DNA of 46,587 bases from a virus: the IMG/VR virus record IMGVR_UViG_2554235478_000002, positions 1 through 46,587 of that record. One strand, 5' to 3'. Positions within the stretch are counted from its first letter, which is position 1. Each line of letters begins with the position of its first letter. Shown here piece by piece: positions 14,541 through 32,672 of the stretch. The notes beneath the pieces are model-generated. The model saw only the letters and a list, made by a program, of their open reading frames with translations, was not told the origin of the DNA and did not search any database. The position numbers and the translations under genes were made by a program.

Positions 14541-14927
14541 TTAGGCATCAGTCTGTTCGATCGAGTAGCGTCGCTCGAGGTCGTCGAGTGCCTCCTGGAC
14601 GTCGTCGGGTTCCATCTCCTCGACGGCGTCGAGACCGTGCTCAACGACGAGAGGTTTCAGGTGCCGGTCTTTCAGGACCTCGAAGTCGCACTCGTAGTTG
14701 AGGCGGTCGTACTGCTTGTCGAGGCGGTCCTTCATCGCGTCGGGTAGATAGACAGTCACGCCGTTCCATGCGCTCTTGACGCTCTCTGCGTCCCATGGAT
14801 TCCTAACCGTCACTGCGTTCTCTGCGTTCATGTCGTTCTCTGGATTCTCTGTCGTGTCGTCCTGGTCGTCGGCGCTGTCGCCGCCGAACCGCCGGGAGAG
14901 TCGGTCGTTGATCTCGTCGTCGCTCAT
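14541..14927 (-). CDS. ParA partner, probable ribbon-helix-helix centromere-binding protein
   Basis: Coupled downstream of parA; unstructured acidic N-terminus, then VTVYLPDAMKDRLDKQY (strand-helix). Confidence 0.6.
   Translation of the reverse strand: MSDDEINDRLSRRFGGDSADDQDDTTENPENDMNAENAVTVRNPWDAESVKSAWNGVTVYLPDAMKDRLDKQYDRLNYECDFEVLKDRHLKPLVVEHGLDAVEEMEPDDVQEALDDLERRYSIEQTDA
14760..14849. repeat. 9-bp-period repeat array C (inside the ParA partner gene)
   Basis: GCCGTTCCA TGCGCTCTT GACGCTCTC TGCGTCCCA TGGATTCCT AACCGTCAC TGCGTTCTC TGCGTTCAT GTCGTTCTC TGGATTCTC. Confidence 0.7.
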
Positions 14928-15691
14928 GGTTCCACCTCAGCCGCAATCGCGGCGTAGACATCGACCATGTCGGTCTCCTCGGCTTCGGGTCCGAAGATGG
15001 AGCAGTGAGCGTTCACGGTTCGCTCGATGGCGGCACGGTGGCGAACAACCCACACCGGAACTCGCCCCTCGAAGCGCTCCTCGTACCACTGCAGCATCCG
15101 CTTCTGTTCGTTGTCGAGCGGATAGTGGACGTCGGAGACGATGATGCCCGAGATGGCGATGTTCGTCCCGTAGTTCTCGTCGAGCGTGTCCAGCTGGCGC
15201 AGCAAGTGCTGGACGGCGAGCTTCGAGGACTCGTCGGCACGGACGGGGACGAGGAGGTTCTCGGTCGCGAGGACGACGTTGTCGTTGATCGGGCCGAGCG
15301 AGGGCGGGGCATCGAACAGGATGACGTCCCAGTTGTCAACGCCGTCGAACAGCATCTGCAGGCGCTGGCGGGGACGCATCCCGCTCGCAATGAGGTCCTG
15401 CTCAAGGGCGAACATATCGATGCTTCCCGGGAGAACGTCGAACTCGTCGTGAGCGACGACAAGGTCGTGAACGTCGTGGTCGTTCGGGTTCGCGAACGCA
15501 TCGTAGAACGTCGGTGGTTCGCTGGTGTAGTAGTCCTCAAACCCGAGGCGATGCGTGAGGTATCCCTGAGGGTCGGCGTCGACGGCGAGGACGTCGAGGC
15601 CGCGGTCGGCGAGGGCGCCCGCGACGTTGATCGCGTTCGTCGTCTTCGCGACACCGCCCTTCTGGTTCGTGATTCCTATCCTGACGGTCAT
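14924..15691 (-). CDS. parA: ParA-family partition ATPase
   Basis: Deviant Walker A NQKGGVAKTT, VLAVDADPQG, ILFDAPP. The ATG at 15691 (MTVRIGITNQKGG) is the likely start. Confidence 0.92.
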   Translation of the reverse strand: MTVRIGITNQKGGVAKTTNAINVAGALADRGLDVLAVDADPQGYLTHRLGFEDYYTSEPPTFYDAFANPNDHDVHDLVVAHDEFDVLPGSIDMFALEQDLIASGMRPRQRLQMLFDGVDNWDVILFDAPPSLGPINDNVVLATENLLVPVRADESSKLAVQHLLRQLDTLDENYGTNIAISGIIVSDVHYPLDNEQKRMLQWYEERFEGRVPVWVVRHRAAIERTVNAHCSIFGPEAEETDMVDVYAAIAAEVEP

Positions 15692-15727
15692 GGCATTCCT
15701 ACCGCGCACGACGTTCCATGCGTTCAA
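15683..15727. repeat. 9-bp-period repeat array F (parA promoter/start)
   Basis: GACGGTCAT GGCATTCCT ACCGCGCAC GACGTTCCA TGCGTTCAA, directly downstream of a TTATTT box on the minus strand. Confidence 0.6.
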
Positions 15728-15761
15728 ATAACCACGTCAGACGCTTGAGAAAGAGATTGAG

Positions 15762-15902
15762 TCAGAACTGCAAGAGAACTACGACGCCGACAACCCACGC
15801 CCCAAGAGCAACGCCGATGAAGATACCCACGGAGAGGTACCACAGTCGCGATTTGTGTGGCGAGTAGGGCGAGTTGGACATCTGCAGGCCCCAGTCGCTC
15901 AT
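15762..15902 (-). CDS. 46-aa membrane peptide
   Basis: MSDWGLQMS...LSVGIFIGVALGAWVVGVVVLLQF; ATGA overlap with the upstream gene. Confidence 0.5.
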   Translation of the reverse strand: MSDWGLQMSNSPYSPHKSRLWYLSVGIFIGVALGAWVVGVVVLLQF

Positions 15903-16108
15903 CGCGACCAGAGCTCCCGGAGTGTCTCACGAATCTCGCCAGGGCGCCAGCCGCGCATCCACGGGTGCAGCGCGCGGTCGTAGCCCTCGAAGATGGGGAT
16001 GGCGTCGACGGGCGCGCCCTCAACAAGCGCGTGGTTCTGTCCGGCCTGGAGGCGTTGGTTGAGATCCCACATGACGCCCGAAAGGGCTCCGTCAGGACGC
16101 TCGGTCAT
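15899..16108 (-). CDS. Hypothetical protein (69 aa)
   Basis: ATGA-coupled ORF. Confidence 0.5.
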   Translation of the reverse strand: MTERPDGALSGVMWDLNQRLQAGQNHALVEGAPVDAIPIFEGYDRALHPWMRGWRPGEIRETLRELWSR

Positions 16109-16263
16109 ACAGCCCTCGCTGGCGGGTACATATCGTCCCACCCTGGCCGCGTCCAGCACCCGCACTCGGGACACTCAAGGACGAGTTTCCCCGGGAGTTC
16201 GACGACGTCGGCGTCGGAGCCGCACCCCGTGCAGATTTCTCGCCAGTCGGAGCGATCAATCAC
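16105..16263 (-). CDS. CPxCG zinc-finger micro-protein (52 aa)
   Basis: CTGCG...CPECGC; GTGA overlap. Confidence 0.55.
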   Translation of the reverse strand: MIDRSDWREICTGCGSDADVVELPGKLVLECPECGCWTRPGWDDMYPPARAV

Positions 16264-16751
16264 GTCGCCCACCCCGCCGACAGGCTCGACTGGTAGTCGA
16301 CGTCGATTTCGTCGTAGCCGTGAATTTCTACGACATCGTCGTTGTGCCAGAACAGCGACCGTATCTCGCCGTCCTGCTGGACCAAGTACTTCACATTCCG
16401 TCCCTGGTACCGCTTCGGCATCCCGTCCTCTCGGGCAGGCGTCGACGGGTCACCCAACGCAAATGACCATGCCGGAATCCCGTAGTACTCCCGTTCACGC
16501 ACCGCGAACACCTTTTGAATATCTCCATACGCAGTTTCGATTAGCGTACCGGGAGTGACTATGTCTGCAACTGTTGGCTGTTCGGGCGGTGTCACCCGGA
16601 CGAAAATCCCGTCAGGAAGGACCGCCAGACGGTCGGTTATGCGCTCGGCGATGTCGTCAGCGCCTCCACACAGCCAGTCCCAGCCATCTCGCTGATATGG
16701 GTTGTTGGGAGGCCACTCTTCCCCAGATGCTGTTGGTGGTTCGTAGCTCAC
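16260..16751 (-). CDS. Hypothetical protein
   Basis: GTG start overlapping the upstream stop; acidic. Confidence 0.55.
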   Translation of the reverse strand: MSYEPPTASGEEWPPNNPYQRDGWDWLCGGADDIAERITDRLAVLPDGIFVRVTPPEQPTVADIVTPGTLIETAYGDIQKVFAVREREYYGIPAWSFALGDPSTPAREDGMPKRYQGRNVKYLVQQDGEIRSLFWHNDDVVEIHGYDEIDVDYQSSLSAGWAT

Positions 16752-16987
16752 GACTCGACCACCATCCAGTCGGCCGTCGAGCTCACTGAGTACAGCATCC
16801 CGGGATGGACTTTTGAACACGATGACTCAGTACAGCGAACGAGCATCCGGCCGCCGTAACTCGTGGCGGCGACGTCCTCGACGACACCGGCGTACGACCC
16901 CGACTCGTTCGACCGGTCGATACGAACGACGTCGTCCACGTCTGGGAGCTCCGAGATACGTGCCTCGTGTTGTGCAGAGTCAGTCAT
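16748..16987 (-). CDS. Hypothetical protein (79 aa, SH3-like beta)
   Basis: MTDSAQHEARISELP...; coupled to neighbours. Confidence 0.5.
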   Translation of the reverse strand: MTDSAQHEARISELPDVDDVVRIDRSNESGSYAGVVEDVAATSYGGRMLVRCTESSCSKVHPGMLYSVSSTADWMVVES

Positions 16988-17118
16988 GCAGACCACTCGT
17001 GCGAACACTCTCTGCAGCGGAGGATTTGGAGCGCTCCGAACTCGCTCATCGATTCTCTCGCCCTGACGAGTAGCTCCGCGTGGCCCGCTCCGCACTCTGG
17101 ACAGACTGGCCGCGTCAT
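16984..17118 (-). CDS. Zinc-ribbon micro-protein (44 aa)
   Basis: CPECG...CRECSHEW, TFIIS-like ribbon pattern. Confidence 0.55.
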   Translation of the reverse strand: MTRPVCPECGAGHAELLVRARESMSEFGALQILRCRECSHEWSA

Positions 17119-17438
17119 CCCGACACCTCCTCGGTCTCGGCCGCCGACAGCTTCGAGTACCGACACACCTCGCAGTACTCCCGGTCGGTCGTCGGGGAAA
17201 GCGTGCCGTACAGAGCGTCTTCGTCGCGCCACAGATACCACACGCCGCCCTCGAAGTCCGGGCATAGTGGTGTCTCGTGGACGTCGCCGTCGTGGGCGAC
17301 AACTCTCACAGCCCCGCCACCGAGCCAGCGCTCGCGACGGTCGAAGCACTCGACGCAGATGTCGCCGTGCGTGATGTGGGCCATGAGCCCGCAGCCGGGA
17401 CAGACTGGGACGTCGTCGACGGACGCGACGTTAGGCAT
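17115..17438 (-). CDS. Zinc-binding protein (107 aa)
   Basis: CPGC...CVEC and H...C...CEVC motifs. Confidence 0.55.
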   Translation of the reverse strand: MPNVASVDDVPVCPGCGLMAHITHGDICVECFDRRERWLGGGAVRVVAHDGDVHETPLCPDFEGGVWYLWRDEDALYGTLSPTTDREYCEVCRYSKLSAAETEEVSG

Positions 17439-17589
17439 CGTCAGCCTCCTGGCTCCCACGCCACTGCGAACAGTGGTGTGCGTGGTCGTGGTCGCTCACG
17501 ACGTGCCGGTCGCACTCGCCGCAGTACCTGCGGGCGAGGACACTTTCGTCGGCCGGGAGTTCGGGTGCGAGATCTTCGTGGTCAGTCAT
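17431..17589 (-). CDS. Small Cys/His-rich protein (52 aa)
   Basis: CGEC...HDHAHHC. Confidence 0.45.
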   Translation of the reverse strand: MTDHEDLAPELPADESVLARRYCGECDRHVVSDHDHAHHCSQWRGSQEADDA

Positions 17590-18289
17590 CACTACCCTCC
17601 ATGCACGTCGTGCGTTCATTCCGTTCCATGCGCCCACTGCGAGTCGTGCGTTCATGGAACGCATCGCCCGAAGCAAACGACAGCCGCACGGCGAGGTTGG
17701 TAACCTGCTCGCGAAGCGCGTCGACGCCCCACTCGTTGCGGAGCTTCGCGTCGGCCCAGAACGCCCACTCGGGCGTCCCCCACATGGACTCGCGGCCGTC
17801 GCGACGGACGAGGTCGTCGGCGTCGAAGTCGCTCTCGTCCTGGCGGCCGCGGCCCTGGAGTCGGTCAAGGCGCTCGTCGAACGGGGCGTGGACCCACACC
17901 GTCGCCAGCGAGTCGAACCAAAGTTCGAGCGCTGGGATGGCCTCGGTGTCGCGCATCCCGATTACCACGACGGGCTTCGCGGGGACCGCGTCGGCGGCCT
18001 CGAGGCGGTCGATGATGTCCTGAGCGACGTAGTCCCCGCCGTCAACGTCGCGACGCATCGTCGAGTAGTCGCCGAGTGCGTCCGAGGAGAGGTCGTCCGT
18101 GGAGTCGACGTCGAAGTGGTCACGTGCGCCCTCGCGGACGATGTCACCTGTTTCGAGTTCGATAGCGTCGAGTTCGTCAGCGAGCATCTCGCCTGCGGTC
18201 GACTTCCCAGCGCCGGGCAGTCCGATCACGACGACGCCCTTACGGAGGTTCTTGGTGGGTGCCTCGTATCTATCGCGAGACTCACTCAC
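17582..18289 (-). CDS. P-loop nucleoside monophosphate kinase-like protein (CoaE/UPF0200-like)
   Basis: VVIGLPGAGKST, GDIVR, GMR, VWVHAPFDERLDRL..RGR. Confidence 0.75.
   Translation of the reverse strand: MSESRDRYEAPTKNLRKGVVVIGLPGAGKSTAGEMLADELDAIELETGDIVREGARDHFDVDSTDDLSSDALGDYSTMRRDVDGGDYVAQDIIDRLEAADAVPAKPVVVIGMRDTEAIPALELWFDSLATVWVHAPFDERLDRLQGRGRQDESDFDADDLVRRDGRESMWGTPEWAFWADAKLRNEWGVDALREQVTNLAVRLSFASGDAFHERTTRSGRMERNERTTCMEGSDD
17602..17673. repeat. 9-bp-period repeat array A with perfect palindrome TGCGTTC-ATG-GAACGCA
   Basis: Six phased units from 17602 to 17655, palindrome at 17647-17663, followed by TCGCCCGAAG. Confidence 0.8.
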
Positions 18290-18819
18290 AGTTCATCACC
18301 GTCCCATTCCGTCGGAATAGCGTCTTTCGGTTGGTAGAGCGGGTGGTTCGGGTGCCCGTCCATCGTGGTGTCGAGCGCCCACAGTACCGGCTCGTCGAGC
18401 ATCGAGGCGACTTCTTCGGCACGACCGTGGAGCGAACCCTTCGCTCCCCACGCGACGATAACCTGTTGTGCGTTCTCGCAGACGTTTCGAAGGTGCTCGT
18501 CGTTGTCGGGGCCGATTGGGTCCGGGTGGTCTTCGAGTTGTGACGGGTCCGTTGCTCGCAGGCCAAACAGATTGGCGACGACGAGCGAACCGTATCCCCA
18601 GTCACGGGCGTAGTTGATGCAACGCCGAATCGTCGGGTCATCTTCCGTCGCGTCCGCCGTACTCGGGTTGAGCATCACGAACGCCAGAGTTGGTTTGCCC
18701 GAGTCCCACGTCCGCGAGAGTCGATAGCGGTACTGTCCGTCTTCGCTGATGACGGCACCAGCAGAGTTGGAACCGGCGAGCGTTTGCTGAGTACCGGATG
18801 CACATTGCTCACTCGGCAT
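18286..18819 (-). CDS. DUF1643 family protein
   Basis: YRYRLSRTW, FVMLNPSTAD, DDPTIRRC, NLFGLRATDP, VIVAWG, HPNHPLY. Confidence 0.85.
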   Translation of the reverse strand: MPSEQCASGTQQTLAGSNSAGAVISEDGQYRYRLSRTWDSGKPTLAFVMLNPSTADATEDDPTIRRCINYARDWGYGSLVVANLFGLRATDPSQLEDHPDPIGPDNDEHLRNVCENAQQVIVAWGAKGSLHGRAEEVASMLDEPVLWALDTTMDGHPNHPLYQPKDAIPTEWDGDEL

Positions 18820-19042
18820 CGTCGAACACCTCTGGGAAGTCGTCGACGTGGAACGTGAGTTCGACAGTCACCGTGTGGTCCGAACCGTGGGCACACTTCG
18901 ACTCTGCTACCTTCGCGCGAGACGAATCGAGAATCTCGTCTAACTCTTCGTCGAGGGCGTCACTGGTGAGCAACTTTCCGTCCGGGTTGAGAGTGCCGTA
19001 CTCTTCCCGAAGTTCATCGTGGCGTGAAGTTCCTGTGCTCAT
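18809..19042 (-). CDS. Hypothetical protein
   Basis: Coupled acidic ORF. Confidence 0.5.
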   Translation of the reverse strand: MSTGTSRHDELREEYGTLNPDGKLLTSDALDEELDEILDSSRAKVAESKCAHGSDHTVTVELTFHVDDFPEVFDDAE

Positions 19043-19398
19043 TCCCAGAGGTCCTCCCAGTCCCAGTAGATGATTTCGAGCGTCGTCTCGGGCGTGATCT
19101 CTTCGTCCGGGTAGTAGCCTTCGAGTTCGTCGATGAGTTCCGCCGTGCTTCGGTACGTCCGGTGGCCGTCGATGTTTTCTCGTGCGGCCTGCTCGACGGT
19201 GATGTAACCAGTATCGGCGATGTGAACAGAGGCAAAGCGTTCACCTGACTCGTCGATTAGCTGGACGCGCTCGCCGGTCCTCGGCACATCATCGGTGATG
19301 CGGTAGGTGAGCGTCTTCCGGCCACCCAGAATCGCGTCGATGTGCTTGTCAGCGAAATTGAGTTTCCGGATTTGCTGAGTCCCCGTGCTCAAATCCAT
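19039..19398 (-). CDS. ASCH (PUA-superfamily) domain protein
   Basis: LNF...IDAILGGRKTLTYR...GE.V, the ASCH GxKxxxxR signature. Confidence 0.8.
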   Translation of the reverse strand: MDLSTGTQQIRKLNFADKHIDAILGGRKTLTYRITDDVPRTGERVQLIDESGERFASVHIADTGYITVEQAARENIDGHRTYRSTAELIDELEGYYPDEEITPETTLEIIYWDWEDLWE

Positions 19399-19760
19399 CA
19401 GTCGTCACGCTCCTTCGGCACGCGTCGAACATCCGTGTGAGTCGTCTGGATGAGTTCTCCACGGTACGTTCGCTCTGAGTCTGCCGATTCCTTCGCGTAC
19501 TCTTCGTTCGGTGCCTCGACGACAACGGTTTCTCGGTGTTCCGTATAGAACGTGAACTCGAAGTGTGCCGGTTCGCTGTTCTGATAAGGACCGTCTACGT
19601 GGTAGACTTCGTCGTACTCTGAACTATCGAGAGCCTTCTCACGGGCGTCTTTCTCCGTGTCGGCAGTGACGGCTTTGCACTCGCCGTCGCGGTGGGTGCC
19701 TACCCAGACAGCCCACGCCGCACCTTCGACGAGCCTCTCAATCTTCGTGTTCGAATCCAT
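19398..19760 (-). CDS. Hypothetical protein with an internal duplication (V.A..E..A.E.A...)
   Basis: AVTADTEKDAREKA and VVEAPNEEYAKESA repeats. Confidence 0.55.
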   Translation of the reverse strand: MDSNTKIERLVEGAAWAVWVGTHRDGECKAVTADTEKDAREKALDSSEYDEVYHVDGPYQNSEPAHFEFTFYTEHRETVVVEAPNEEYAKESADSERTYRGELIQTTHTDVRRVPKERDD

Positions 19761-20122
19761 CACTCACTCACCTCAAAATCAGTGTCACACGTGTAGCATC
19801 GGTATGCGTCGTCGGTAGATGATACTTTGTCTGAGCCACAGTGCGGGCACTCGTCAACGTCTCTTTCGTCTTCGATCTTGTAGAGCCGCCCCTGAATTTT
19901 GATGTGTCCTTCGGGCACATCTCCGTTTCCGCTCTTTCCCGTCGTCGGGAAGACAGTGAGTTCACTGTACTCTTGCACACCGTCGCCAGAGTAGGTGAAC
20001 TCAATCTTCATGTGCGGCTTCTCGACGACAACCACGCCGGTTTTTCCAACGACGTGCGACGGAGTTTCGAGGCCTTCGTCGGTGAGTGCGAGTGTCTGGA
20101 TAGCTGATTCCGTGTCTTGCAT
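19760..20122 (-). CDS. Hypothetical protein with C-terminal zinc ribbon
   Basis: CPHCGS...CYTC; GAGGTG site before the ATG at 20122. Confidence 0.55.
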   Translation of the reverse strand: MQDTESAIQTLALTDEGLETPSHVVGKTGVVVVEKPHMKIEFTYSGDGVQEYSELTVFPTTGKSGNGDVPEGHIKIQGRLYKIEDERDVDECPHCGSDKVSSTDDAYRCYTCDTDFEVSE

Positions 20123-20123
20123 A

Positions 20124-20719: not shown

Positions 20720-21003
20720 CAGTAATCGTACCCCGTTCCACACCGCGTACACCGAACGCGGTGCTCAGTTTGTTCCCACTCGATCGATAGTCGATACTCG
20801 TCGGCGTCGAAGTCCGTCGCATCCCACATCCCGACGACCATGCGCCCGGTCGCGACCTCTTCGTCGACGAGGTCGCCGCCACAGTCGCAGGTGTCGACGC
20901 GCTCAGTCGCGACAATTCTCGAACCCTTCTCCGTCGGGTAAGTGGTCTGGTCCGTCGGCGGGACTGGGGGCGTCGGTTTCTGTTCGCCGGTACTTTCAGC
21001 CAT
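20719..21003 (-). CDS. Zinc-ribbon protein (94 aa)
   Basis: CDCGG...CTRCG. Confidence 0.55.
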   Translation of the reverse strand: MAESTGEQKPTPPVPPTDQTTYPTEKGSRIVATERVDTCDCGGDLVDEEVATGRMVVGMWDATDFDADEYRLSIEWEQTEHRVRCTRCGTGYDY

Positions 21004-21015: not shown

Positions 21016-21087
21016 TACGCTCCATGTGTTCATGTTTTTCAGTGCATTCAATGCGCCCCATCCGTTCATGGAACGCATCGCTCGAAG
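21016..21087. repeat. 9-bp-period repeat array B (intergenic)
   Basis: TACGCTCCA TGTGTTCAT GTTTTTCAG TGCATTCAA TGCGCCCCA TCCGTTCAT GGAACGCATCGCTCGAAG; same layout and 3' end as array A. Confidence 0.8.
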
Positions 21088-21104: not shown

Positions 21105-21380
21105 TCAGACATGGAATGTCACCTCGACGCCGTTGACTTCCAAAACACGGTCACCGCACTCGGGGCATTCGGTAGTGACGTGATCTGGGAAATGCAGCTT
21201 CCCATACCCGTCCGCCCGAACAGCAGTCTTCTCGGTTTCGAACTCCTCGACCCACCCATCGCAGAACTCAGGCTCGATATCCGGCGTCATGCACCGGACA
21301 ACGAGTTTCTCCGAGACGAGTGCTGCAGGGACGTGGTCGAAGCCGTCGGGAATCACTTTTGAATCGTTCGACTGGCTCAT
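21105..21380 (-). CDS. Zinc-finger protein
   Basis: C...C...CPECG. Confidence 0.55.
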   Translation of the reverse strand: MSQSNDSKVIPDGFDHVPAALVSEKLVVRCMTPDIEPEFCDGWVEEFETEKTAVRADGYGKLHFPDHVTTECPECGDRVLEVNGVEVTFHV

Positions 21381-22650: not shown

Positions 22651-22657
22651 CTGTGAG

Positions 22658-24652: not shown

Positions 24653-25657
24653 GTGATGATCCTTAGTCGCCGCGTCCTCGACCCGACCTGGATGCCGTCA
24701 GGGGAACTCATCGTGCATCGCCACGACGAGATTGAGATTCTCACATCTGCTCTCTCCCCCGTTCTCGACGGCGAGAGCGGATGTCCGATGTTCATGTTCG
24801 GCCCGACCGGCGTTGGGAAAACGCTCGTCGCGACCACTGCACTCGACATGCTCGACGAGCACGCCGACTACCACCGCGCCGTCGTGAACTGCTGGCGGCA
24901 CTCCTCGCGCCACGACGTCACCGTCGAGATCGCGAAGCAAGTTCTCGGCGGGACAGTGAATCCGGAGGACTCCCAGACGGATCTGATGGACCGCATTCAA
25001 GACCGCCCAGACAAACCTCGCGTCGTTCTCCTCGACGAGGTCGACCAGCTGCACGACGACGGCGTCCTGTATGACCTGTACCTCGCTCCCGAGCTCACGG
25101 TGATCGGCATCGCTAATCGCGAGCAAGAGTTCTTCGCCAGTCTCGACCAGCGGACGCAGTCGCGCTTTGTCGGGAGTCGACGTATCAACCTCTCGGGATA
25201 CCTCGTCGACGAACTCGTAGAGATACTTAACCCGCGAGTCAAGCACGCCCTCGAACCCGGGTCGATCTCCGAACACGAGATCGAGACTATCGCGACGCTC
25301 GCGAACGGCGACGCCCGCGCCGCGATCACCATTCTCCGGGCCGCCGCCGAAGAGGCAGAGTCTCAGAATGCAGACCACATCGACGACCGGATTCTCGAAG
25401 GAGCGGGTCCAGTTGCGCGTGAGGACCTCCGACAGACGCACCTCGGTCAGCTGCACTCGCACCAGCGCACGGTGTTCGACATCGTCGACGACGCCGATGG
25501 TCCTCTTGCACCCAGCGAGATTTTCGACCGGTACGCCGAGCGCGTGTCCAACCCACGGACGTCGCGAACGGTGCGCAACTACCTCGCGAAGATGGTCGAC
25601 TATCGCCTCCTGGAGGCGACCGGCGAGACGTCCGAGCGGCAGTACAAATCTATCTAA
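24653..25657 (+). CDS. cdc6: Orc1/Cdc6-family replication initiator
   Basis: HR..EI, Walker A GPTGVGKT, VNCW, Walker B LLDEVD, sensor IGIAN, GDARAAI, C-terminal winged helix. Confidence 0.93.
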   Translation: MMILSRRVLDPTWMPSGELIVHRHDEIEILTSALSPVLDGESGCPMFMFGPTGVGKTLVATTALDMLDEHADYHRAVVNCWRHSSRHDVTVEIAKQVLGGTVNPEDSQTDLMDRIQDRPDKPRVVLLDEVDQLHDDGVLYDLYLAPELTVIGIANREQEFFASLDQRTQSRFVGSRRINLSGYLVDELVEILNPRVKHALEPGSISEHEIETIATLANGDARAAITILRAAAEEAESQNADHIDDRILEGAGPVAREDLRQTHLGQLHSHQRTVFDIVDDADGPLAPSEIFDRYAERVSNPRTSRTVRNYLAKMVDYRLLEATGETSERQYKSI

Positions 25658-25876: not shown

Positions 25877-26155
25877 TCAGGAGTCCTCAATGACTTCCAG
25901 TTTGGAAGCATCCAATTCCTCATCGAGGTACTGCTCGCCCAGCTCGGTGATACCGTACAAACCCTTGTCGACGCGTTCGAGAAGACCGTATTTAGTCAAT
26001 TCCCGACACCGGACACCCGCGTACTGACGCCCGATGTCAATACGCGGGACCAAACCATCTCGACTCAGTGCGACCGGGGTCAAGTTCCCATCCTGGCGGA
26101 TAATCTCAAGGATCCGATCGTCAATTCGTTTCATCCAGTCCGCCCGCTTGCGCAT
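25877..26155 (-). CDS. PhiH1-repressor-like winged-helix protein
   Basis: WMKRIDDRILEII...RCRELTKYGLLERVDKGLYGITELGEQYL. Confidence 0.82.
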   Translation of the reverse strand: MRKRADWMKRIDDRILEIIRQDGNLTPVALSRDGLVPRIDIGRQYAGVRCRELTKYGLLERVDKGLYGITELGEQYLDEELDASKLEVIEDS

Positions 26156-26401: not shown

Positions 26402-26469
26402 CACGACGAATCTCAACAGTGCCTCTAGACGAGGGCTGTTTCGGTAGTGATCAGGCTACCGTGAAAGCC

Positions 26470-26874
26470 ATGAGTACAAAAGACAACTCTCCGGATAAAT
26501 CAACCGGCACGAACTGTCGCAACGCTCGCAACCAACCCCACGCCTCGGACCTGACACACTTCCAGGTCAACATCCTCATCATCCTTGCCGAGGAGGACAA
26601 GTACGGACTCGCCATCAAACGCGACCTCGAGACCTACTACGGCACCGAAGTGAACCACGGGCGCCTGTACCCCAACCTCGACGACCTTGTCGAGATGGGC
26701 CTCGTCGAGAAAACGGAACTCGACAAGCGCACGAACAACTACTCGCTCACGAGCGCCGGCGAGCACCTGCTTCGTAACCGTGCGCAGTACCTCGTTGGTT
26801 CTCTCGACTTAGAGGTTTCCCCACGCGGGGAGTCAGAGTCGAACGCTGTCGCGACCGACGGAGGTGAGATGTGA
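26470..26874 (+). CDS. PadR-family transcription regulator
   Basis: LTHFQVNIL...YGLAIKRDLETYYGTEVNHGRLYPNLDDLVEMGLVEK...DKRTNNYSLT. Confidence 0.88.
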   Translation: MSTKDNSPDKSTGTNCRNARNQPHASDLTHFQVNILIILAEEDKYGLAIKRDLETYYGTEVNHGRLYPNLDDLVEMGLVEKTELDKRTNNYSLTSAGEHLLRNRAQYLVGSLDLEVSPRGESESNAVATDGGEM

Positions 26875-27152
26875 TGGAGCGTACAGACCTTGCAACAGTA
26901 GGAGTCAGTGACTCTCGCGGAGCTAGCATTTTCCTCGGGGAGCGTGACACAGAATGGGAAAATCTCGAAATCGGCGGTGAAGAGGGACTGACAGAGGTAT
27001 ACTGGAACCGCCGGATGCTACTCACACTCCCAGAGCCGATGGACAGTGATGAGTTCCGGCAGTTCGTCGAAGAAGCTGGCCACATCCGCAACATCCTCGA
27101 CAAGTGCCTGCCCGGAATCGACGTGATCGACGGGGGCGAGGATGCCCAGTGA
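26874..27152 (+). CDS. Hypothetical protein
   Basis: GGAGGTGA site; ends in DGG. Confidence 0.55.
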   Translation: MERTDLATVGVSDSRGASIFLGERDTEWENLEIGGEEGLTEVYWNRRMLLTLPEPMDSDEFRQFVEEAGHIRNILDKCLPGIDVIDGGEDAQ

Positions 27153-27711
27153 TGCCGTCGAAGGCCTCACGCGCGAGGACGTTCTCGGAACGACGGTGAA
27201 GTCCTCGGCAGGGCACTGGTACGAAGTCACGGAGACAGACAACGGGGGTCGCCTTGACCTCGTCGCCGTCGACAGCGACAACGTCGGGCACACGATGGAC
27301 GCCGACGACCTGCTCGACCGGTTAAACGACGGCGAATGGGAGACCGTCTACGAGGGCACGACCCGGGAAATAGTCACCGACGGTGGGCACAACCAGTGTT
27401 CCAACTGCGGGAGCCACCTCCCCGAGGAGATCGACGAAGGGACGGGCGTTTATTGTCCTGACTGCGGCCTCGGCCAACTTGTCACCGACGGCGGGTGGAA
27501 CGTCGACGGCGAGGCGCCGCCGCGAGGCTGCGACCACCCCGAACCGGCCGTCCTCGAGGACGACCACGCGTGGGACCTAGTCAAAGGCGTCATGCTCGTC
27601 CGGGGAACCTGTACGTCCTGCGGTCGCGACGTCGAAGAGACCTACCACATCTCGCGTGAGTCTGTGAGCGACGAGCCGGTGGCCCTCACTGACGGGGGTG
27701 ACCGCACATGA
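27142..27711 (+). CDS. Composite protein with zinc fingers and three TDGG motifs
   Basis: CSNC..CPDC and C.H...CTSC motifs separated by VTDGG. Confidence 0.6.
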   Translation: MPSDAVEGLTREDVLGTTVKSSAGHWYEVTETDNGGRLDLVAVDSDNVGHTMDADDLLDRLNDGEWETVYEGTTREIVTDGGHNQCSNCGSHLPEEIDEGTGVYCPDCGLGQLVTDGGWNVDGEAPPRGCDHPEPAVLEDDHAWDLVKGVMLVRGTCTSCGRDVEETYHISRESVSDEPVALTDGGDRT

Positions 27712-28406
27712 TTCGCGCCATTTTCGGACTCGTCGAGGGCGAGCCGTCGACGACCGAAATCCCCCGCCGACTCGGCAAGGGTCTCCCCGCGTTCGAGACA
27801 GAGTCGACGCAGTATCTCGACGGCAAGGAGATCTACCACGGGACGGCCGCCGACCAGGTCGACACAACGGTCCAAGAAGTCCACGTCGACGACGACGGGA
27901 TCTACACCGAGCGCGTTGAAGGTCAGGAGGAGTCAGTTACCGACTTCGTGGCTGACCTCGAGTCGGGGTTCGTCGGTGTCGACTCTTCGAACGGCGAGTG
28001 GTTCTTCGAACGACTCATGCCCATCGCGAAGGCCGGCGTCCACCGCGCGATGATCGACGTCACGGCGTTCGCAGCTCACGTCGACGACCAGGACGGCCGG
28101 TGCTGGCAGGTCAGCTACAAGCACGCCCTCGACGACGACGAAGACGACGACGGGCAGGCCAAGTCCGGGACCATCTTCCACCGCGATGCCCACTTCGGCG
28201 CCGGGAGCGGTAAGTACAACCAGTACGGCTTCGCCTACCACTGGGACGGCGAGTTCATCCGCGGAACTATCGCCGAGTCGGGCTACGTCGCCGTCTTCTC
28301 GACCGACCGACCCGAGGTGTTCGGCCGGTGGGTCCTCGACGAGGTGCTTCCGTACGCATCGCTCCTCGAAGACGACGTCCAGACCACACTCTCGGAGGTG
28401 CGGTAA
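27708..28406 (+). CDS. Hypothetical protein (232 aa)
   Basis: Coupled acidic ORF. Confidence 0.65.
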   Translation: MIRAIFGLVEGEPSTTEIPRRLGKGLPAFETESTQYLDGKEIYHGTAADQVDTTVQEVHVDDDGIYTERVEGQEESVTDFVADLESGFVGVDSSNGEWFFERLMPIAKAGVHRAMIDVTAFAAHVDDQDGRCWQVSYKHALDDDEDDDGQAKSGTIFHRDAHFGAGSGKYNQYGFAYHWDGEFIRGTIAESGYVAVFSTDRPEVFGRWVLDEVLPYASLLEDDVQTTLSEVR

Positions 28407-28407
28407 G

Positions 28408-29325
28408 ATGGCGATGTCAACGCCCACGCCCACGCTCGCGGGCTATCGCGAGGACATCGACGACGAGGGCACCGACCTTCGCGTCGAAGTGACGGCGGGC
28501 GAGCAGCACATCGCCTTGGAAGCACGCGCCGTCGACGGCGTCGCGACGGTCGAGATGATCAACCCGAAGGGCGACATGGTCCTCCGACGGAAGACGTTCG
28601 ACATCGTCGCGACGGCGGTCGACGAACTTCGCGACCGTGGGTTCGAGGTTGACCTCGGTGCGCTCGGCGCACTTGGTGTCAATCCGGTTGACGACCTCGA
28701 CCTCAGTTGGGGCGGCGATTACACAGGATCGCTGACGCTCACGGGGACTTCCGTCGACCCTGAAGACAGCTCCACGAACGAGACGCACTCTGTGAGCTCC
28801 GTCGTCGACAGCTGGGGCGACGACCTGGACGGCGAGGACGGCGAAGTCTGGTGTGGCATCTGTGGCAAGGGCCCGTACCAGTCGCTCGGGATTCACCACG
28901 GACAGATGCACAAAGGTGAGGACAAAGTCGCTCTCGACCACGAACCAGATCCAGGCGAGCTCGGCGTCCACGTCGGCGACCAGGACGAGGACGGTGGCGA
29001 CGCCGTCGACGGAGACGAACAGGAAGACGTCGACGACGAGGACGACGACGTCCCGCTGCCGCCGTGGCTCGACGAGCACCCAACGGACGTCATCGAGGAC
29101 TCGAGCATCAACCGGTCGCTCGAAGATGTCCTTCGCGAGGTCGAACGCCAAGACAGCATCCTCGGTATCCAGCAGCGCCTCGCCGCCGGCACGACCAAGA
29201 AGACCAAAGAGTTGCTGACGCGTCTCGGGCTGACTGCGCCGGGCGATAACGAACTCATCGGGGAGGCACAGCGTGCAACGCGGGTCCCCATCCTCCGGGC
29301 AATCGCCAGTGATGGCGATGCATGA
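28408..29325 (+). CDS. Hypothetical protein with C2H2-like finger
   Basis: CGICGKGPYQSLGIHHGQMH; acidic linker. Confidence 0.65.
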   Translation: MAMSTPTPTLAGYREDIDDEGTDLRVEVTAGEQHIALEARAVDGVATVEMINPKGDMVLRRKTFDIVATAVDELRDRGFEVDLGALGALGVNPVDDLDLSWGGDYTGSLTLTGTSVDPEDSSTNETHSVSSVVDSWGDDLDGEDGEVWCGICGKGPYQSLGIHHGQMHKGEDKVALDHEPDPGELGVHVGDQDEDGGDAVDGDEQEDVDDEDDDVPLPPWLDEHPTDVIEDSSINRSLEDVLREVERQDSILGIQQRLAAGTTKKTKELLTRLGLTAPGDNELIGEAQRATRVPILRAIASDGDA

Positions 29326-29428
29326 ACCCACGGTCACCGAGGCGAAGTGCGACATCTGCGGGACGGACTTCGACGCCGACGTCGACGCGCTGCTCGACCA
29401 CGACTGCGACGGGGGTAACGAGCTGTGA
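29318..29428 (+). CDS. 36-aa zinc-finger micro-protein
   Basis: MHEPTVTEAKCDICG...HDCDGGNEL; overlaps both neighbours. Confidence 0.5.
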   Translation: MHEPTVTEAKCDICGTDFDADVDALLDHDCDGGNEL

Positions 29429-30120
29429 GCGTCGGCCCTGAGCAGTATGCCACGACTTCGAACGGGGATGTTCAGTTGAGCACGTGGTGTGGCAAGCACC
29501 GCGTTTTGCCCCACCTGCTTCCGTTCAAGTACCGGAAGACGACGCCAATCGAGTTCCTCGACGCCGTCGTCGAAGGGCTGGACGAGCTTCCCCAGACGGC
29601 CGCGACGTTCACGCCGGCACAGATGGACGACATCGACGTCCGACCAGCCGCAGGAGCAAACATCATGACCGATATGCTCGGGACGCTCGGCGCCTGGAAG
29701 GTCGACCGGTCGAGCTCAGCCCGGTGGGTCAACCCGAACTACGTGCACCTTCGGAAACTCGACAATATGATCGAGTCCGGCGACCGGAGGGAGATCGTCG
29801 AGCGGTGCGCGTCGTACGGGACGCTCACGGTCGCTGACGTCGCGCCCCGGTTCGGAATCTCCGAGATGGGGCTTCGACGGTGGCTCACGCGCAAAGGCAT
29901 CACGTGGAGTGAACTTCGCCAAGAAGGGATCACTCGCCTCGCGCGGACGATCCATACTGCGTCGGCGTGGGGGCACTCGGAACTCCGGTACGCCCGTGTC
30001 CTGCCCCGGCCAGAAGGGACGATCCGGTCGTGGGTTCAGAAGTACGCTCGCGATGTCGACTTTGAACCGCCTGCCGACCCGAGCGGGAAGCAGTGGTTCA
30101 TGGGAGGGCAGGTCAGATGA
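29425..30120 (+). CDS. HTH-containing protein
   Basis: TVADVAPRFGISEMGLRRWL and PEGTIRSWVQK. Confidence 0.6.
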   Translation: MSVGPEQYATTSNGDVQLSTWCGKHRVLPHLLPFKYRKTTPIEFLDAVVEGLDELPQTAATFTPAQMDDIDVRPAAGANIMTDMLGTLGAWKVDRSSSARWVNPNYVHLRKLDNMIESGDRREIVERCASYGTLTVADVAPRFGISEMGLRRWLTRKGITWSELRQEGITRLARTIHTASAWGHSELRYARVLPRPEGTIRSWVQKYARDVDFEPPADPSGKQWFMGGQVR

Positions 30121-30200
30121 CCTCCCGCCGCTTCGCCGGCTGGTGGGCCGTCGTGTGCGCTGCAGTGCTCGTCACCGCGTACCTGGGGGTAACCTGGTGA
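30117..30200 (+). CDS. 27-aa membrane peptide
   Basis: WWAVVCAAVLVTAYLGVTW; ATGA overlap. Confidence 0.4.
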   Translation: MTSRRFAGWWAVVCAAVLVTAYLGVTW

Positions 30201-30677
30201 TGAGCGTGCAGCCACCAACCAATGGATCCGTGAACGCGTGGGTACAGCAGGACGGCCAGGTCGTCGACGGCGACGAAAGTGCCGCCCGGCCGCATTTCCC
30301 GTACGGTGGGAGGCCAGCGATGAGTGACGATAACCCTGTGGCGTCAGACATTCAGCCAAAGTATAAGAACCACGTCCGCGAAAGAACGCGATATGCAACG
30401 CTGACGCTCATCGGCAGTGAGGTCCGGGGACATCCCCGGCGACCTCGCGGCCACCGGGGACGGTCCACCAGAAGGAAGTTGACACTTGCCTCTTCTCGTG
30501 GATTCGTCTTAACGTTTGCCCACTCGAAGAGTCGTGACTCTGTCACGTGCGACTCGACGGCGACGACGGTGACCTCGACGAGCGTCTCGACCAGCATCGG
30601 CACCCAACCAGCCACAACAACCACCACGATGCACGAGATCTCCACGATAGTTGACCAAGCCCGCCCTGAACCCCAGA

Positions 30678-30695
30678 GAGAATTTTTTTCTTCGC
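30678..30695. repeat. 18-bp inverted repeat, arm 1 (GAGAATTTTTTTCTTCGC)
   Basis: Exact reverse complement at 31132-31149. Confidence 0.8.
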
Positions 30696-30826
30696 GACCT
30701 GCCCTCCGAGAGTACACCAGGGGGACAGCCAGAACACCAAACGGACGCTACACCCCATCCAAACCCACGAATAGCCAAGCAACCATGAGGGGACCGGTAG
30801 TTCCACAGGAACCGGCCCCCTCCCCT

Positions 30827-30881
30827 GCCTCACATCAGTGTGATGTGAGTGGTAGGTGTAGAGACGGCCGCCTCACATCAG
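30827..30881. repeat. CTCACATCA palindrome and direct repeat upstream of the Rep-like gene
   Basis: CTCACATCA-GTG-TGATGTGAG (30829-30849); GCCTCACATCAG at 30827 and 30870. Confidence 0.75.
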
Positions 30882-30914
30882 ACTGCTGTGACTGCATCCG
30901 TGGGGGTGAAATCA

Positions 30915-32069
30915 ATGCGTGACCGTACTCTCCTCGACTGGCGAGTCCCCAAATCCGAGTGGGAACGGTTTGTCGAACACGTTGAAACCGAATTTGGCAG
31001 TACTGAGGGATATCTCGGCCGCGAGGCGGAAGCTGCGATGCGAGAGTATGCAGACACCGACGGCTACGCTGGCGTCGAGGAACGCGTCGACCGTCTCGTT
31101 CAGGCAGCTGGTCGTTCCTCTGGGGGGGACAGCGAAGAAAAAAATTCTCAGTTCAACGGGGAGCCAACGACTCGAGTCACAGTCCGTGTCGACCCTGACG
31201 TGAAAGACGAATTCCGGAAGGAAGCCAAGAAGAGCGACCAGTCGTACGGCGTCACGTTCGCCCGTGCAATCCAGACCTACCGCAACGGTGGCCGCGCCGC
31301 TCGTCTCGAGCGTCGTCTCGACCGCGTCATCGACGACGCCGAGAAGATGCTCGAACATGTGGCGAACGAGGGCGACGACGAGGTCTCGATGGGGAAACAC
31401 CAACGGTGTGTGATCACGATTGCGGCAGACCTGGGCGACGAGTTCGTCGACGACGAGCTGGAGCGCAAGATTCGGGATGTCGCGAACGTCCACTCCCGGA
31501 AGCAGATTCGCGAGTACCGCCGCGACGTCATCGAACACAAAGGCGTCGAACCTCACCCGAAGGTCCCGCATCTGTGGGTCCAACCCGAGGAGGCCGAACG
31601 GCTGTGCCCAGGCGTTCCGAAAGAGTGCCGCCGCCCGGTCGAACATCTCGACTCGGACGCTCGCGTGAAACGACTGAAACTCGCGGCTGGCCGTCGAGCT
31701 GCGGCTACCGACGCGGGGAAGGTCCGCGTCACTGCCACAGAGATTCGTGAACACGTCTTCGACAACGAAACGTCGACGAAGACGACGCGTGAGCTGATGC
31801 GCTCTGCCGCCCAGGTCACAGGCATCGGTTTTGACGGCTCGACGTCGCCCGCGGCGCTGCAGGTCAACCTCCGAGTCTTAGGGGAGACAGAGTTCGACCT
31901 GTTTGACGAGATCATCGACTACCGCGACAACACTGACAGCGGACTCCTGACGTCGTCGACGCCGACGACAATGGATGACTTCGTGAGAAAACCGAGCGAT
32001 GCAACATCCGGCGGCGCGACCGCAGCTTCCGACGGCGGCGAAGACGGCCCGTGGGGTGGGGACAAGTGA
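30915..32069 (+). CDS. Multi-RHH/winged-helix DNA-binding protein; candidate second replication protein
   Basis: GGGGGTGA site; LLDWRVPKSEWERF and VTVRVDPDVKDEFRK strand-helix repeats; flanked by origin-like repeats. Confidence 0.5.
   Translation: MRDRTLLDWRVPKSEWERFVEHVETEFGSTEGYLGREAEAAMREYADTDGYAGVEERVDRLVQAAGRSSGGDSEEKNSQFNGEPTTRVTVRVDPDVKDEFRKEAKKSDQSYGVTFARAIQTYRNGGRAARLERRLDRVIDDAEKMLEHVANEGDDEVSMGKHQRCVITIAADLGDEFVDDELERKIRDVANVHSRKQIREYRRDVIEHKGVEPHPKVPHLWVQPEEAERLCPGVPKECRRPVEHLDSDARVKRLKLAAGRRAAATDAGKVRVTATEIREHVFDNETSTKTTRELMRSAAQVTGIGFDGSTSPAALQVNLRVLGETEFDLFDEIIDYRDNTDSGLLTSSTPTTMDDFVRKPSDATSGGATAASDGGEDGPWGGDK
31132..31149. repeat. 18-bp inverted repeat, arm 2 (within the Rep-like gene)
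   Basis: GCGAAGAAAAAAATTCTC. Confidence 0.8.
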
Positions 32070-32338
32070 GGCACGTCTGTCCGCACTGCGGCGCTGACTC
32101 CGAACGCCACGAGGCTATTGAACGTCGTCGCGATGGATTCCATGAACGCACTGAACGCCATCACTGCAGGGAATGCGGCTACTCGTGGGATGGCGACCGA
32201 AAACTCTCCGAAGACGCCGACAATCCCCTGTGTCCGAACTGCGAGACGAACCTACTCGTTCATCAGGCCAAAGGCAACGGCAACGACTGGGCCTGTGAAG
32301 GCTGCAACACGAAATGGTCTCGAACGGAGGTCGCGTAA
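32066..32338 (+). CDS. Double zinc-ribbon protein
   Basis: CPHC..CREC..CPNC..CEGC. Confidence 0.6.
   Translation: MRHVCPHCGADSERHEAIERRRDGFHERTERHHCRECGYSWDGDRKLSEDADNPLCPNCETNLLVHQAKGNGNDWACEGCNTKWSRTEVA
32102..32177. repeat. Repeat array D (opposite orientation)
   Basis: TGGATTC-CAT-GAACGCA at 32134-32150, then GAACGCC at 32153 and GAATGCG at 32171; also GAACGCC at 32102 and GAACGTC at 32120. Confidence 0.6.
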
Positions 32339-32626
32339 ATGCCATCGGAGTGGCAACCAGCAGGGAAGGGAGACCGTCCACAGTTCCCCAGAATCGAGGA
32401 AGACGAAGGCGAAGACCCGGCCAGGTTCCTCGCCGAGCCTCTCGAAGCGGACTACGGCGACGGCGCCAGTGGGATGCTCGCCCTCGCCCGCATCCGCGGT
32501 ATCGAGTCGCTCTCACTCCTCAACGCCTACCGGTTGGTCGAGCGAGAACTGCATGGGGGCGAACGAAAGACGATCAAGGAAGCGCTTGACGAGCGCGAGC
32601 AAGAGCTCTCGAACGAGGTTCAATGA
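32339..32626 (+). CDS. Hypothetical protein
   Basis: GAGGT site; helical acidic ORF. Confidence 0.6.
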   Translation: MPSEWQPAGKGDRPQFPRIEEDEGEDPARFLAEPLEADYGDGASGMLALARIRGIESLSLLNAYRLVERELHGGERKTIKEALDEREQELSNEVQ

Positions 32627-32672
32627 ATTCATGCCTTCCATTACACAACAAGAACGCATTGAACGCATAGAA
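32611..32672. repeat. Repeat array E (opposite orientation)
   Basis: GAACGCA at 32652 and 32661 (9-bp spacing), with TGCCTTC at 32632. Confidence 0.5.

What the first reader, a model, noticed from the sequence alone, without database searches (positions are those of the whole stretch)
14760..32672. Six dispersed 9-bp-period repeat arrays linked to a ParA-RHH operon: candidate centromere system of a haloarchaeal plasmid prophage
Seen: a half-site TGCGTTC (or GAACGCA) with variants recurs at exact 9-bp spacing in clusters at 14760-14849, 15683-15727, 17602-17673, 21016-21087, 32102-32177 and 32611-32672. The arrays at 17.6 and 21.0 kb have the same layout: six phased units, then an inverted half-site making TGCGTTC-ATG-GAACGCA, then TCGCYCGAAG. 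One array sits on the parA promoter/start, one inside the partner gene, one is intergenic, and three are in unrelated genes where they read in different frames (NAENA, ERNER, ERTER, ERIER). That points to selection on the DNA rather than the protein. All six show GAACGCA on the transcribed strand. Established: small RHH centromere-binding proteins (ParG, omega type) bind phased short repeats and autoregulate their operon, and phage-plasmid N15 uses dispersed centromere sites. Inference: these arrays are the cis sites for the 14541-14927 protein. I am not aware of such sites being defined for haloarchaeal ParA systems.
Basis: partly seen in the sequence, partly recalled or inferred. Interest (0 to 1): 0.85.

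Follow-up and report, generated by a model that had tools for sequence, protein, structure and literature searches.

The report
Partition-protein binding arrays on a halovirus plasmid
Six clusters of a 9-base repeat on a circular virus-plasmid of a salt-loving archaeon are most likely the docking sites of the small protein that works with its ParA segregation ATPase, and the same layout recurs next to this gene pair across haloarchaea, so it points to the DNA sites of a widespread, unstudied partition family.

Summary
A matrix trained only on the 17.6 and 21.0 kb arrays picks out the other four clusters (scores 22-30; other periods reach 18 at most). In the 3.95-Mb genome only one unrelated array elsewhere scores above 20. 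Synonymous recoding of the host genes rarely or never reproduces the arrays.

The window is a whole circular contig of about 46.5 kb: a tailed halovirus with ParA, Orc1/Cdc6, a phiH-like repressor and no integrase.

The partner (14541-14927) belongs to DUF8160 and has a ribbon-helix-helix-like (RHH-like) model. Family matches occur in 158 of 301 sampled Halobacteria genomes, and parA lies directly upstream in all 30 loci examined. Phased arrays sit at the parA start, in the partner's linker codons and at its 3' end. Their motif changes together with the partner's predicted DNA-reading strand. In five complete genomes, 69 of 70 array matches lie on the replicon carrying the operon, including dispersed sites.

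The closest characterised system is HpaAB/hpaS3 of Haloferax volcanii pHV3 (2026), whose adaptor is not detectably homologous. This is a new member of the type Ib-like kind. Earlier scan notes reported related arrays on other DNA.

The parts
14924..15691 (-). parA: 255-aa Walker-type ATPase with KGGVAKT and no N-terminal DNA-binding extension
   Evidence: Pfam AAA_31 at E 1.5e-33 and CbiA at 1.5e-17. It is 52% identical to the phiH ParA-domain protein and 26% identical to HpaA.
14541..14927 (-). Partner (candidate centromere-binding protein), 128 aa, DUF8160. It has a conserved N-terminal helix (residues 3-14), a disordered acidic linker (about 15-50) and an RHH-like C-terminal domain (54-126).
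   Evidence: Precomputed PF26492. phrog_29165 at E 2.6e-78. The AF2 model has pLDDT above 90 for residues 60-120. RHH chains dominate the fold hits: TraM N-domain Z 5.1 (rmsd 1.3 over 49 residues) and Z 4.7 (rmsd 1.8 over 51). The gene overlaps parA by 4 nt.
14760..14849 (-). Array A1: about 10 phased 9-bp units inside the linker codons of the partner gene, read as x-N-A
   Evidence: The same position carries an array in relatives and across the family.
15674..15727 (-). Array A2: 5-6 units between the TATA-like box and the parA ATG (15691). Predicted operator and promoter-proximal centromere part.
   Evidence: Arrays lie at -36 to +8 of the parA ATG in related loci. The phiH T7 transcript start is mapped 5 nt upstream of its parA ATG.
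15726..15742 (-). Predicted parA promoter: TTATTT (15726-15731) preceded by the conserved GTCTGACG (15735-15742)
   Evidence: Read from the sequence. The same arrangement occurs in phiH and in nearly all C20-like loci.
17602..17673 (-). Array A3: six direct units, one inverted unit, then TCGCCCGAAG. It lies in the last ~30 codons of the AAA-kinase-like gene 17582-18289 and 13 bp upstream of the ATG at 17589.
   Evidence: An array sits at the same place in V2 (21037) and V3 (33020).
21016..21087 (-). Array A4: same layout as A3, between gene 21105-21380 and the ATG at 21003
32102..32177 (+). Array A5: two phased sub-blocks and one inverted unit in the 5' part of the zinc-ribbon gene 32051-32338
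32611..32672 (+). Array A6: an inverted pair followed by phased units, spanning the stop of 32339-32626 and the start of the MarR-like gene 32631-33128
   Evidence: It is conserved at the orthologous gene start in V2 (38999), V3 (50624) and the Haloferax mucosum contig (8157).

Best explanation
The window is a circular ~46.5-kb tailed halovirus that can persist as a plasmid. It encodes a type Ib-like partition cassette. One gene is a small ParA ATPase. Overlapping its end is a 128-aa DUF8160 protein with a conserved N-terminal helix, a disordered linker and a C-terminal ribbon-helix-helix-like (RHH-like) domain.

The six arrays are this protein's binding sites. I infer that one dimer binds per 9-bp unit through its beta-ribbon, so that neighbouring dimers coat each array cooperatively.

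The array between the TATA-like box and the parA start (A2) would autoregulate the operon. A2 together with the array in the partner's own linker codons (A1) would form the core centromere. The four dispersed arrays (A3-A6) would be extra attachment sites, as in N15, pHV3 or RK2. They may also dampen transcription of the operons they sit in.

Shown here: the arrays, their specificity to this replicon, selection at the DNA level, family-wide positional conservation, and co-variation of motif with the partner. Inferred: binding, stoichiometry, ParA stimulation by the N-terminal helix, and partition itself.
For: - The arrays are real, 9-bp phased and confined to this contig.
- Codon choice preserves them beyond what the protein sequence requires.
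- ParA is of the small type.
- The partner's model has an extended segment plus helices, and RHH proteins dominate its structural neighbours.
- DUF8160 matches occur in 158 of 301 sampled Halobacteria genomes and 62 of 80 genera.
- parA is directly upstream in 30 of 30 loci.
- Arrays recur at the parA start, in the linker codons and at the partner's 3' end, 67 of 70 in the same orientation. At the score threshold used, 24 of the 30 loci carry such arrays.
- The unit motif differs between clades: GAACGCA, CACAGAA, AACGAAC, AAGAACG, TCCAAAG, AGATAAG, AACCGTC. It is shared by the separate arrays of one cassette and tracks the beta-strand pentapeptide: NGVTV, NVRSF, NGRTI, TPRSI and so on.
- The host's second DUF8160 system, on contig C5, uses TGAATCAN at an 8-bp period.
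- In five complete genomes, 69 of 70 triple-unit matches lie on the replicon with the operon, including sites 12-70 kb away. The reversed-pattern control gave 0.
- phiH and pNRC100 show the same arrangement.
- An unrelated haloarchaeal ParA partner, HpaB, was shown by ChIP-seq to bind six dispersed sites on its own replicon only (PMC13722703).
Against: - No binding, localisation or stability data exist for any DUF8160 protein.
- The fold matches are modest (Z 3.2-6.3). The model is a monomer, so the ribbon itself is not modelled.
- Motif and beta-strand lie within about 1 kb and are inherited together, so part of their association is shared descent.
- A3-A6 are not at recognisable promoters, so a regulatory role there is a guess.
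- A second RHH-bearing protein (30915-32069) sits next to A5 and A6.
- The uniform orientation of the arrays relative to transcription is not explained by a symmetric dimer model.
Confidence: 0.72

Rival explanations
1. Operator network only. The DUF8160 protein is a repressor that autoregulates parA and tunes early or lysogeny genes through the dispersed arrays. Partition uses only the promoter-proximal site, or does not depend on these repeats.
For: A2 lies between the TATA-like box and the start codon. A3-A6 lie within about 80 bp of gene junctions in the early and regulatory half of the genome. Omega of pSM19035 and KorB of RK2 act as global regulators (my own knowledge).
Against: A3, A4 and A6 have no TATA-like box and sit inside co-directional operons next to Shine-Dalgarno-type starts. 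In the plasmid subfamily, three arrays spread over 300 bp upstream of parA, more than an operator needs. Dispersed arrays also occur on large plasmids.
Confidence: 0.14
2. A different protein of the element reads the dispersed arrays. Candidates are the multi-RHH 384-aa protein (30915-32069) and the MarR-like protein whose start lies in A6.
For: The 384-aa protein has a weak RHH_1 hit at E 6.8e-4, lies directly upstream of A5 and A6, and is present in the three relatives that keep an A6-type array but not in phiH. MarR_2 matches at E 4e-7.
Against: The same motif fills the parA promoter and the partner's linker, and that arrangement exists in cassettes lacking both proteins (phiH, plasmids). 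V2 and V3 have identical A6-type arrays, although their 384-aa homologues are 44% and 85% identical to the window's.
Confidence: 0.07
3. Replication iterons or origin elements bound by Orc1/Cdc6 or another initiator.
For: An orc1/cdc6 gene lies at 24656-25657. Iterated repeats are typical of origins.
Against: The arrays are 3-10 kb from orc1. They travel with parA-DUF8160, not with orc or repH, in the 30 loci. They lie mostly in coding DNA.
Confidence: 0.03
4. An RNA-level or protein-level feature: a repeated element in the mRNAs, or tripeptide repeats selected for the proteins.
For: GAACGCA is always on the sense strand. The linker of DUF8160 genes always has 3-codon periodicity.
Against: The arrays occur in non-coding promoter DNA with the same motif. 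Two frames and unrelated proteins are involved, and in L046 the unit recurs inverted at the 3' end. Synonymous recoding destroys them. They share no RNA fold: z-scores run from +0.5 to -2.3. There was no Rfam match.
Confidence: 0.03

Closest known systems
HpaA-HpaB-hpaS3 of Haloferax volcanii pHV3 (Premrajka et al., Nat Commun 2026, PMC13722703)
   Same: A haloarchaeal ParA with a small downstream partner that overlaps it by a few bases. The partner has an N-terminal ParA-contacting helix and a predicted RHH. It binds six dispersed, replicon-specific sites next to unrelated genes.
   Different: HpaB is not detectably homologous to DUF8160 (hhalign probability 0.24%), and the ParAs are 26% identical. 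hpaS3 is described as AT-rich and upstream of genes. Here the units are GAACGCA, in 5-10-unit phased arrays, mostly inside coding DNA including the partner's own gene. The replicon here is a virus.
Type Ib partition: ParF-ParG-parH/OF of TP228, and delta-omega-parS of pSM19035 (my own knowledge; PMC9499535 listed)
   Same: A small ParA, an RHH dimer with a flexible N-terminal tail, short repeats (8-bp or 7-bp period) in direct and inverted orientation covering the promoter, the same sites serving as operator and centromere, and several parS sites on one plasmid (omega).
   Different: This is an archaeal protein family with no sequence similarity. The period is 9 bp. Arrays are embedded in genes. 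Function is untested.
Phage-plasmid N15 sopAB with four dispersed centromere sites (my own knowledge)
   Same: A temperate virus kept as an episome, with partition sites scattered through the genome, some in or near phage genes.
   Different: N15 uses a type Ia SopA/SopB (a helix-turn-helix ParB) and single inverted repeats, not RHH-type phased arrays.
KorB/IncC of RK2, and parS inside spo0J of Bacillus subtilis (my own knowledge)
   Same: A centromere-binding protein with many dispersed sites that also regulates genes. A centromere lying inside the coding sequence of its own binding protein.
   Different: These are ParB/KorB-type HTH proteins that bind palindromic single sites.
phiH L-segment parA (PhiH1_265) and PhiH1_260 (PMC6210493)
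   Same: A homologous gene pair (52% and 36% identity), with the same motif family and arrays in the linker and at the 3' end of the partner gene. The prophage is plasmid-borne.
   Different: In phiH the partner is annotated only as uncharacterised and no repeats are described. I found no dispersed arrays outside the operon.

Membership tests
Type Ib ParA partition systems | Small Walker-type ParA without an N-terminal DNA-binding domain | tested here: met
   255 aa; AAA_31 at E 1.5e-33; KGGVAKT at residues 11-17.
Type Ib ParA partition systems | Small centromere-binding protein gene directly downstream in one operon | tested here: met
   4-nt overlap (14924-14927). The pair is conserved in 30 of 30 loci.
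Type Ib ParA partition systems | Iterated short repeats at or upstream of the parA promoter | tested here: met
   A2 lies at -36 to +8 of the ATG. The plasmid subfamily has three arrays at about -300, -200 and -61 to -17.
Type Ib ParA partition systems | The partner binds the repeats, stimulates ParA, and the cassette stabilises a replicon | not testable with these tools
Ribbon-helix-helix superfamily | An N-terminal beta-strand that pairs in a dimer, followed by two helices | tested here: inconclusive
   The model has an extended segment at 56-61, helices at 63-79 and 86-104, and an extra helix at 107-126. Best matches: TraM Z 5.1 (rmsd 1.3 over 49) and Z 4.7 (rmsd 1.8 over 51); many RHH chains at Z 3.6-4.2; pCXC100 ParB Z 3.2. 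There is no sequence match to PDB or to Pfam RHH models.
DUF8160 (PF26492) | Match to the family profile | tested here: met
   The precomputed Pfam field lists PF26492 for this protein and its four close relatives. There are 130 representatives at E<=1e-3. The model is absent from the local Pfam copy.
HpaAB of pHV3 | Partner homologous to HpaB | tested here: not met
   hhalign probability 0.24%, E 0.25. The pHV4 and pHV1 partners also show no clear match.
HpaAB of pHV3 | Several dispersed, replicon-specific sites | tested here: met
   Six arrays lie on this contig only. In five genomes, 69 of 70 matches are on the operon's replicon.
Plasmid-prophage (phage-plasmid) | A complete virus genome that is circular, not integrated, and carries replication and partition genes | tested here: met
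   The contig has an 89-bp terminal overlap. It encodes a large terminase, portal and tail genes, Orc1/Cdc6 and ParA. No PF00589 match lies on this contig. The episomal state in cells was not observed.

The most novel reading that the evidence does not exclude
DUF8160 proteins with ParA are the main, so far uncharacterised, partition system of haloarchaeal plasmids, megaplasmids and temperate viruses. Their centromeres are 9-bp phased arrays written into coding DNA, including the linker codons of the adaptor's own gene, so that site and reader travel as one unit. In the viruses, the dispersed arrays would additionally couple episome partition to silencing of early operons in the carrier state.
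Probability: 0.3. Interest if true: 0.8.

Novelty: new member of a known kind. Interest (0 to 1): 0.6.

Why it matters
Genome segregation in polyploid haloarchaea was long taken to be random. One ParA system (HpaAB) has just been shown to position a replicon.

The family studied here has matches in about half of the sampled Halobacteria genomes and in the classic models phiH and pNRC100, yet it has no described function or sites. The comparative data give concrete, testable predictions:
- the site sequences for many systems;
- a candidate specificity code linking beta-strand to motif;
- an explanation for how two systems can coexist in one cell by using different motifs.

The work also adds an archaeal example of a virus-plasmid with dispersed partition sites.

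Tried and rejected
- Megablast of 22 kb against phage records found nothing. Against plasmids it found only a 470-bp hit to pHM100.
- A simple shift-9 self-similarity scan was too insensitive to detect the arrays.
- The first AF2 model, from 5 sequences, was poor (pLDDT 48).
- Foldseek against PDB gave no match with E<=0.001. The profile search against PDB sequences gave nothing meaningful.
- PF26492 is not in the local Pfam library.
- Rfam and tRNA scans were empty.
- RNA folds of the five coding or intergenic arrays share no structure.
- GC skew does not locate an origin.
- Weak candidate arrays at about 22128 and 41527 are not convincing.
- The preprint version of the HpaAB paper lacks the hpaS data, and the consensus is only in a figure. 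My guess that hpaS3 is the AGATTAT repeat is therefore unverified.
- The look-up of encoding contigs and complex prediction were closed, so metagenomic neighbourhoods and a ParA-partner contact test could not be run.

Full report
**1. Observation.**
The unit is 9 bp, TGCGTTC(A/C)(T/A), written on the strand opposite to the local genes.
- A1 has about ten units, A2 five or six, and A3 and A4 six each.
- A3 and A4 continue with an inverted unit (TGCGTTC-ATG-GAACGCA) and then TCGCYCGAAG. On the minus strand they share 63 of 101 positions ungapped, with the best-conserved stretch at the distal end. Both begin 13 bp upstream of a small gene's ATG.
- A5 and A6 are less regular. They consist of two phased sub-blocks and an inverted unit with the same 3-bp spacer.

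**2. More than chance.**
- Hits with at most one mismatch fall 9, 18 or 27 bp apart ten times. Markov shuffles give 1.0 on average and at most 4 in 200.
- A matrix trained on A3 and A4 only scores the four other clusters at 21.9-30.3 for six units at period 9. The best scores at other periods are 9-18.
- In the 3.95-Mb genome only one other place exceeds 20, an unrelated 18-bp tandem on contig C8.
Codons drawn from the element's usage never reached the observed score for A1, A3 or A5. Within-gene synonymous shuffles reached it 3, 0 and 0 times. The part of A6 inside the MarR-like gene was reached 12 and 32 times. For A3 the matrix is not independent, because it was trained on that array.

**3. 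What the element is.**
- The window is a whole contig whose first and last 89 bases are identical, so it is a circle of about 46.5 kb.
- It encodes a large terminase, a portal and tail proteins.
- It also encodes an Orc1/Cdc6, a homologue of the phiH repressor RepR and a PadR regulator.
- No tyrosine-integrase match lies on this contig.
- Two complete IMG/VR genomes with terminal repeats and a Haloferax mucosum contig share its structural genes at 80-96% protein identity.

It is therefore best read as a temperate tailed halovirus that can live as a plasmid, not as an integrated prophage.

**4. The operon.**
- parA (14924-15691) is a 255-aa Walker ATPase.
- The partner (14541-14927) overlaps parA by 4 nt. 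It has no hit in the local Pfam copy but carries PF26492/DUF8160 in the precomputed field, and it matches phrog_29165.
- With a 103-sequence alignment, AF2 gives a confident C-terminal domain: an extended segment at 56-61 and helices at 63-79, 86-104 and 107-126. The model also has a short N-terminal helix and a disordered linker.
- An exhaustive structure comparison returns mostly ribbon-helix-helix proteins for residues 52-108: TraM at Z 5.1 (rmsd 1.3 over 49), plus AmrZ, NikR, PutA, SvtR, TacA and CopA. It also returns McdB. All scores are modest.

I treat the RHH assignment as likely, not proven.

**5. Relatives.**
- The three related viruses keep arrays of the same motif in the partner's linker, at the end of the kinase-like gene (A3 type) and at the start of the MarR-like gene (A6 type). 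The H. mucosum contig also clearly keeps one on the parA start.
- phiH, the classic Halobacterium virus whose prophage is a plasmid, has a homologous pair: ParA at 52% and PhiH1_260 at 36% identity. It carries arrays of the same motif family in the linker and at the 3' end of the partner gene. A related sequence lies between its TATA box and the mapped T7 start, 5 nt before parA.
- The phiH genome paper lists the partner as uncharacterised and mentions no repeats.

**6. The family.**
- A profile of the partner finds matches in 158 of 301 sampled Halobacteria genomes and in 62 of 80 genera.
- In all 30 loci fetched, parA is directly upstream. In pHM100 only a remnant of parA is left.
- Period-9 arrays exceed the control periods in most loci, and they sit at fixed places.
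- In the virus-like subfamily the places are -36 to +8 of the parA ATG, +835 to +980 (linker codons), and +1100 to +1225 (3' end).
- In the widespread 139-aa subfamily there are three arrays, at about -300, -200 and -61 to -17.
- Sixty-seven of 70 arrays have the same orientation.
- pNRC100 shows the same design.

**7. Co-variation.**
- The unit differs between clades: GAACGCA, CACAGAA, AACGAAC, AAGAACG, TCCAAAG, AGATAAG, AACCGTC.
- Within one cassette, the promoter array and the linker array, about 900 bp apart, carry the same unit. In L046 the unit also recurs inverted at the 3' end.
- The unit tracks the pentapeptide before the conserved Tyr of the predicted beta-strand: NGVTV, NVRSF, NGRTI, TPRSI and SATSV, TGRYM.
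- The host genome's second DUF8160 system, on contig C5, uses TGAATCAN at an 8-bp period. Two systems in one cell therefore have different sites.
- Because site and reader are closely linked, shared descent explains part of this association. The concerted change of separate arrays still argues for a reader encoded in the cassette.

**8. Replicon specificity elsewhere.**
- In five complete genomes, the pattern AACGAA-N3-AACGAA-N3-AACGAA (at most 2 mismatches) occurs 70 times, 69 of them on the replicon with the 139-aa operon.
- The reversed control pattern never occurs.
- Each replicon has one or two additional arrays 12-70 kb from the operon.

Dispersed sites are thus a family trait, not a peculiarity of this virus.

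**9. Mechanism.**
- The best-supported reading is a type Ib-like partition system. Partner dimers bind the 9-bp units and coat each array.
- A2, between the TATA-like box and the start, would give autoregulation.
- A1 and A2 bracket parA and would form the core centromere.
- The conserved N-terminal helix (MSDDEINDRLSRRFGG) would contact ParA. This is by analogy with ParG, omega and the N-terminal helix of HpaB.
- A3-A6 lack promoter features and sit at gene junctions, in protein tails or linkers. That fits sites placed where a compact genome tolerates them.
- Whether they add partition capacity, act as roadblocks, or both is open.

**10. Comparison with what is known.**
- The nearest characterised system is HpaAB of pHV3. 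It comprises a ParA and a small RHH partner, ChIP-seq shows six dispersed peaks only on pHV3, and the motif hpaS3 is described as AT-rich.
- HpaB, and the partners on pHV4 and pHV1, are not detectably related to DUF8160.
- The hpaA upstream region carries TAGATTATT CAGATTATT, and that pattern recurs at four places on pHV3. This may be hpaS3, but I could not check the figure.
- Functionally the design matches TP228 ParFG/parH and pSM19035 delta/omega. The dispersion recalls N15 and RK2. A centromere inside the adaptor's own gene recalls spo0J of B. subtilis. These comparisons rest on my own knowledge.

**11. Verdict.**
Biochemical and genetic proof is missing. I class this as a new member of a known kind, with value as a family-wide, testable definition of sites. 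Earlier notes of this scan reported TGAATCA arrays in front of haloarchaeal parA operons, and a virus gene carrying a copy of the partner's DNA-binding domain, on other DNA. They agree with this reading.

Noticed in passing
window 15735-15742 (minus strand); also L005 about 6112-6119 and L018-L036, L046, L051: GTCTGACG lies 3-5 nt upstream of the TATA-like box of the parA promoter. It is conserved across cassettes whose array motifs differ. It may be a BRE-like element or the site of a second, shared factor.
   Followed up: partly
window 30915-32069 (+): A 384-aa protein (phrog_29021) has a weak RHH_1 hit at residues 87-119 and RHH-like segments elsewhere. It lies directly upstream of arrays A5 and A6 and could be a second reader of repeats.
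   Followed up: partly
G000 contig C5, about 41500-43600 (minus strand): A second parA-DUF8160 operon in the same genome has many TGAATCAN units at an 8-bp period upstream of parA and just after the partner's stop codon.
   Followed up: partly
G000 contig C8, about 76640: An 18-bp tandem, TTCGTTCAAACCGGCGAA, is the only non-C20 locus scoring above 20 with the array matrix.
   Followed up: no
L048 8340-8370 (pHV3 18348-18363) and pHV3 199606-199648, 229746-229763, 320547-320571: AGATTAT units at 9-bp spacing lie upstream of hpaA and at three other places on pHV3. They may be the published hpaS3 motif.
   Followed up: partly
L001 6366-6480 (pHM100): The DUF8160 gene is intact with its internal array, but only the last ~40 codons of parA remain. 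This is a decayed cassette.
   Followed up: partly
window 25877-26155 (-) and 26470-26874 (+): A divergent pair of a RepR-like winged-helix gene (32% identical to the phiH repressor) and a PadR gene (47% identical to PhiH1_295). This is probably the lysis-lysogeny switch.
   Followed up: no
L043 and L042, -130 to -62 of the parA ATG: In the 139-aa subfamily, a block of about 70 bp between the second and third arrays is nearly identical across genera (GTTGGTTTTAACATCGTAGTAATCCTC...CACCCTCACCGAACGCACCGAAC).
   Followed up: no
G125:C4:63854, G181:C3:149113, G035:C2:32945: A conserved dispersed site, AACGAACGAAACGAATTCACCGAG, lies far from the operon and in the opposite orientation to it on three plasmids.
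   Followed up: no
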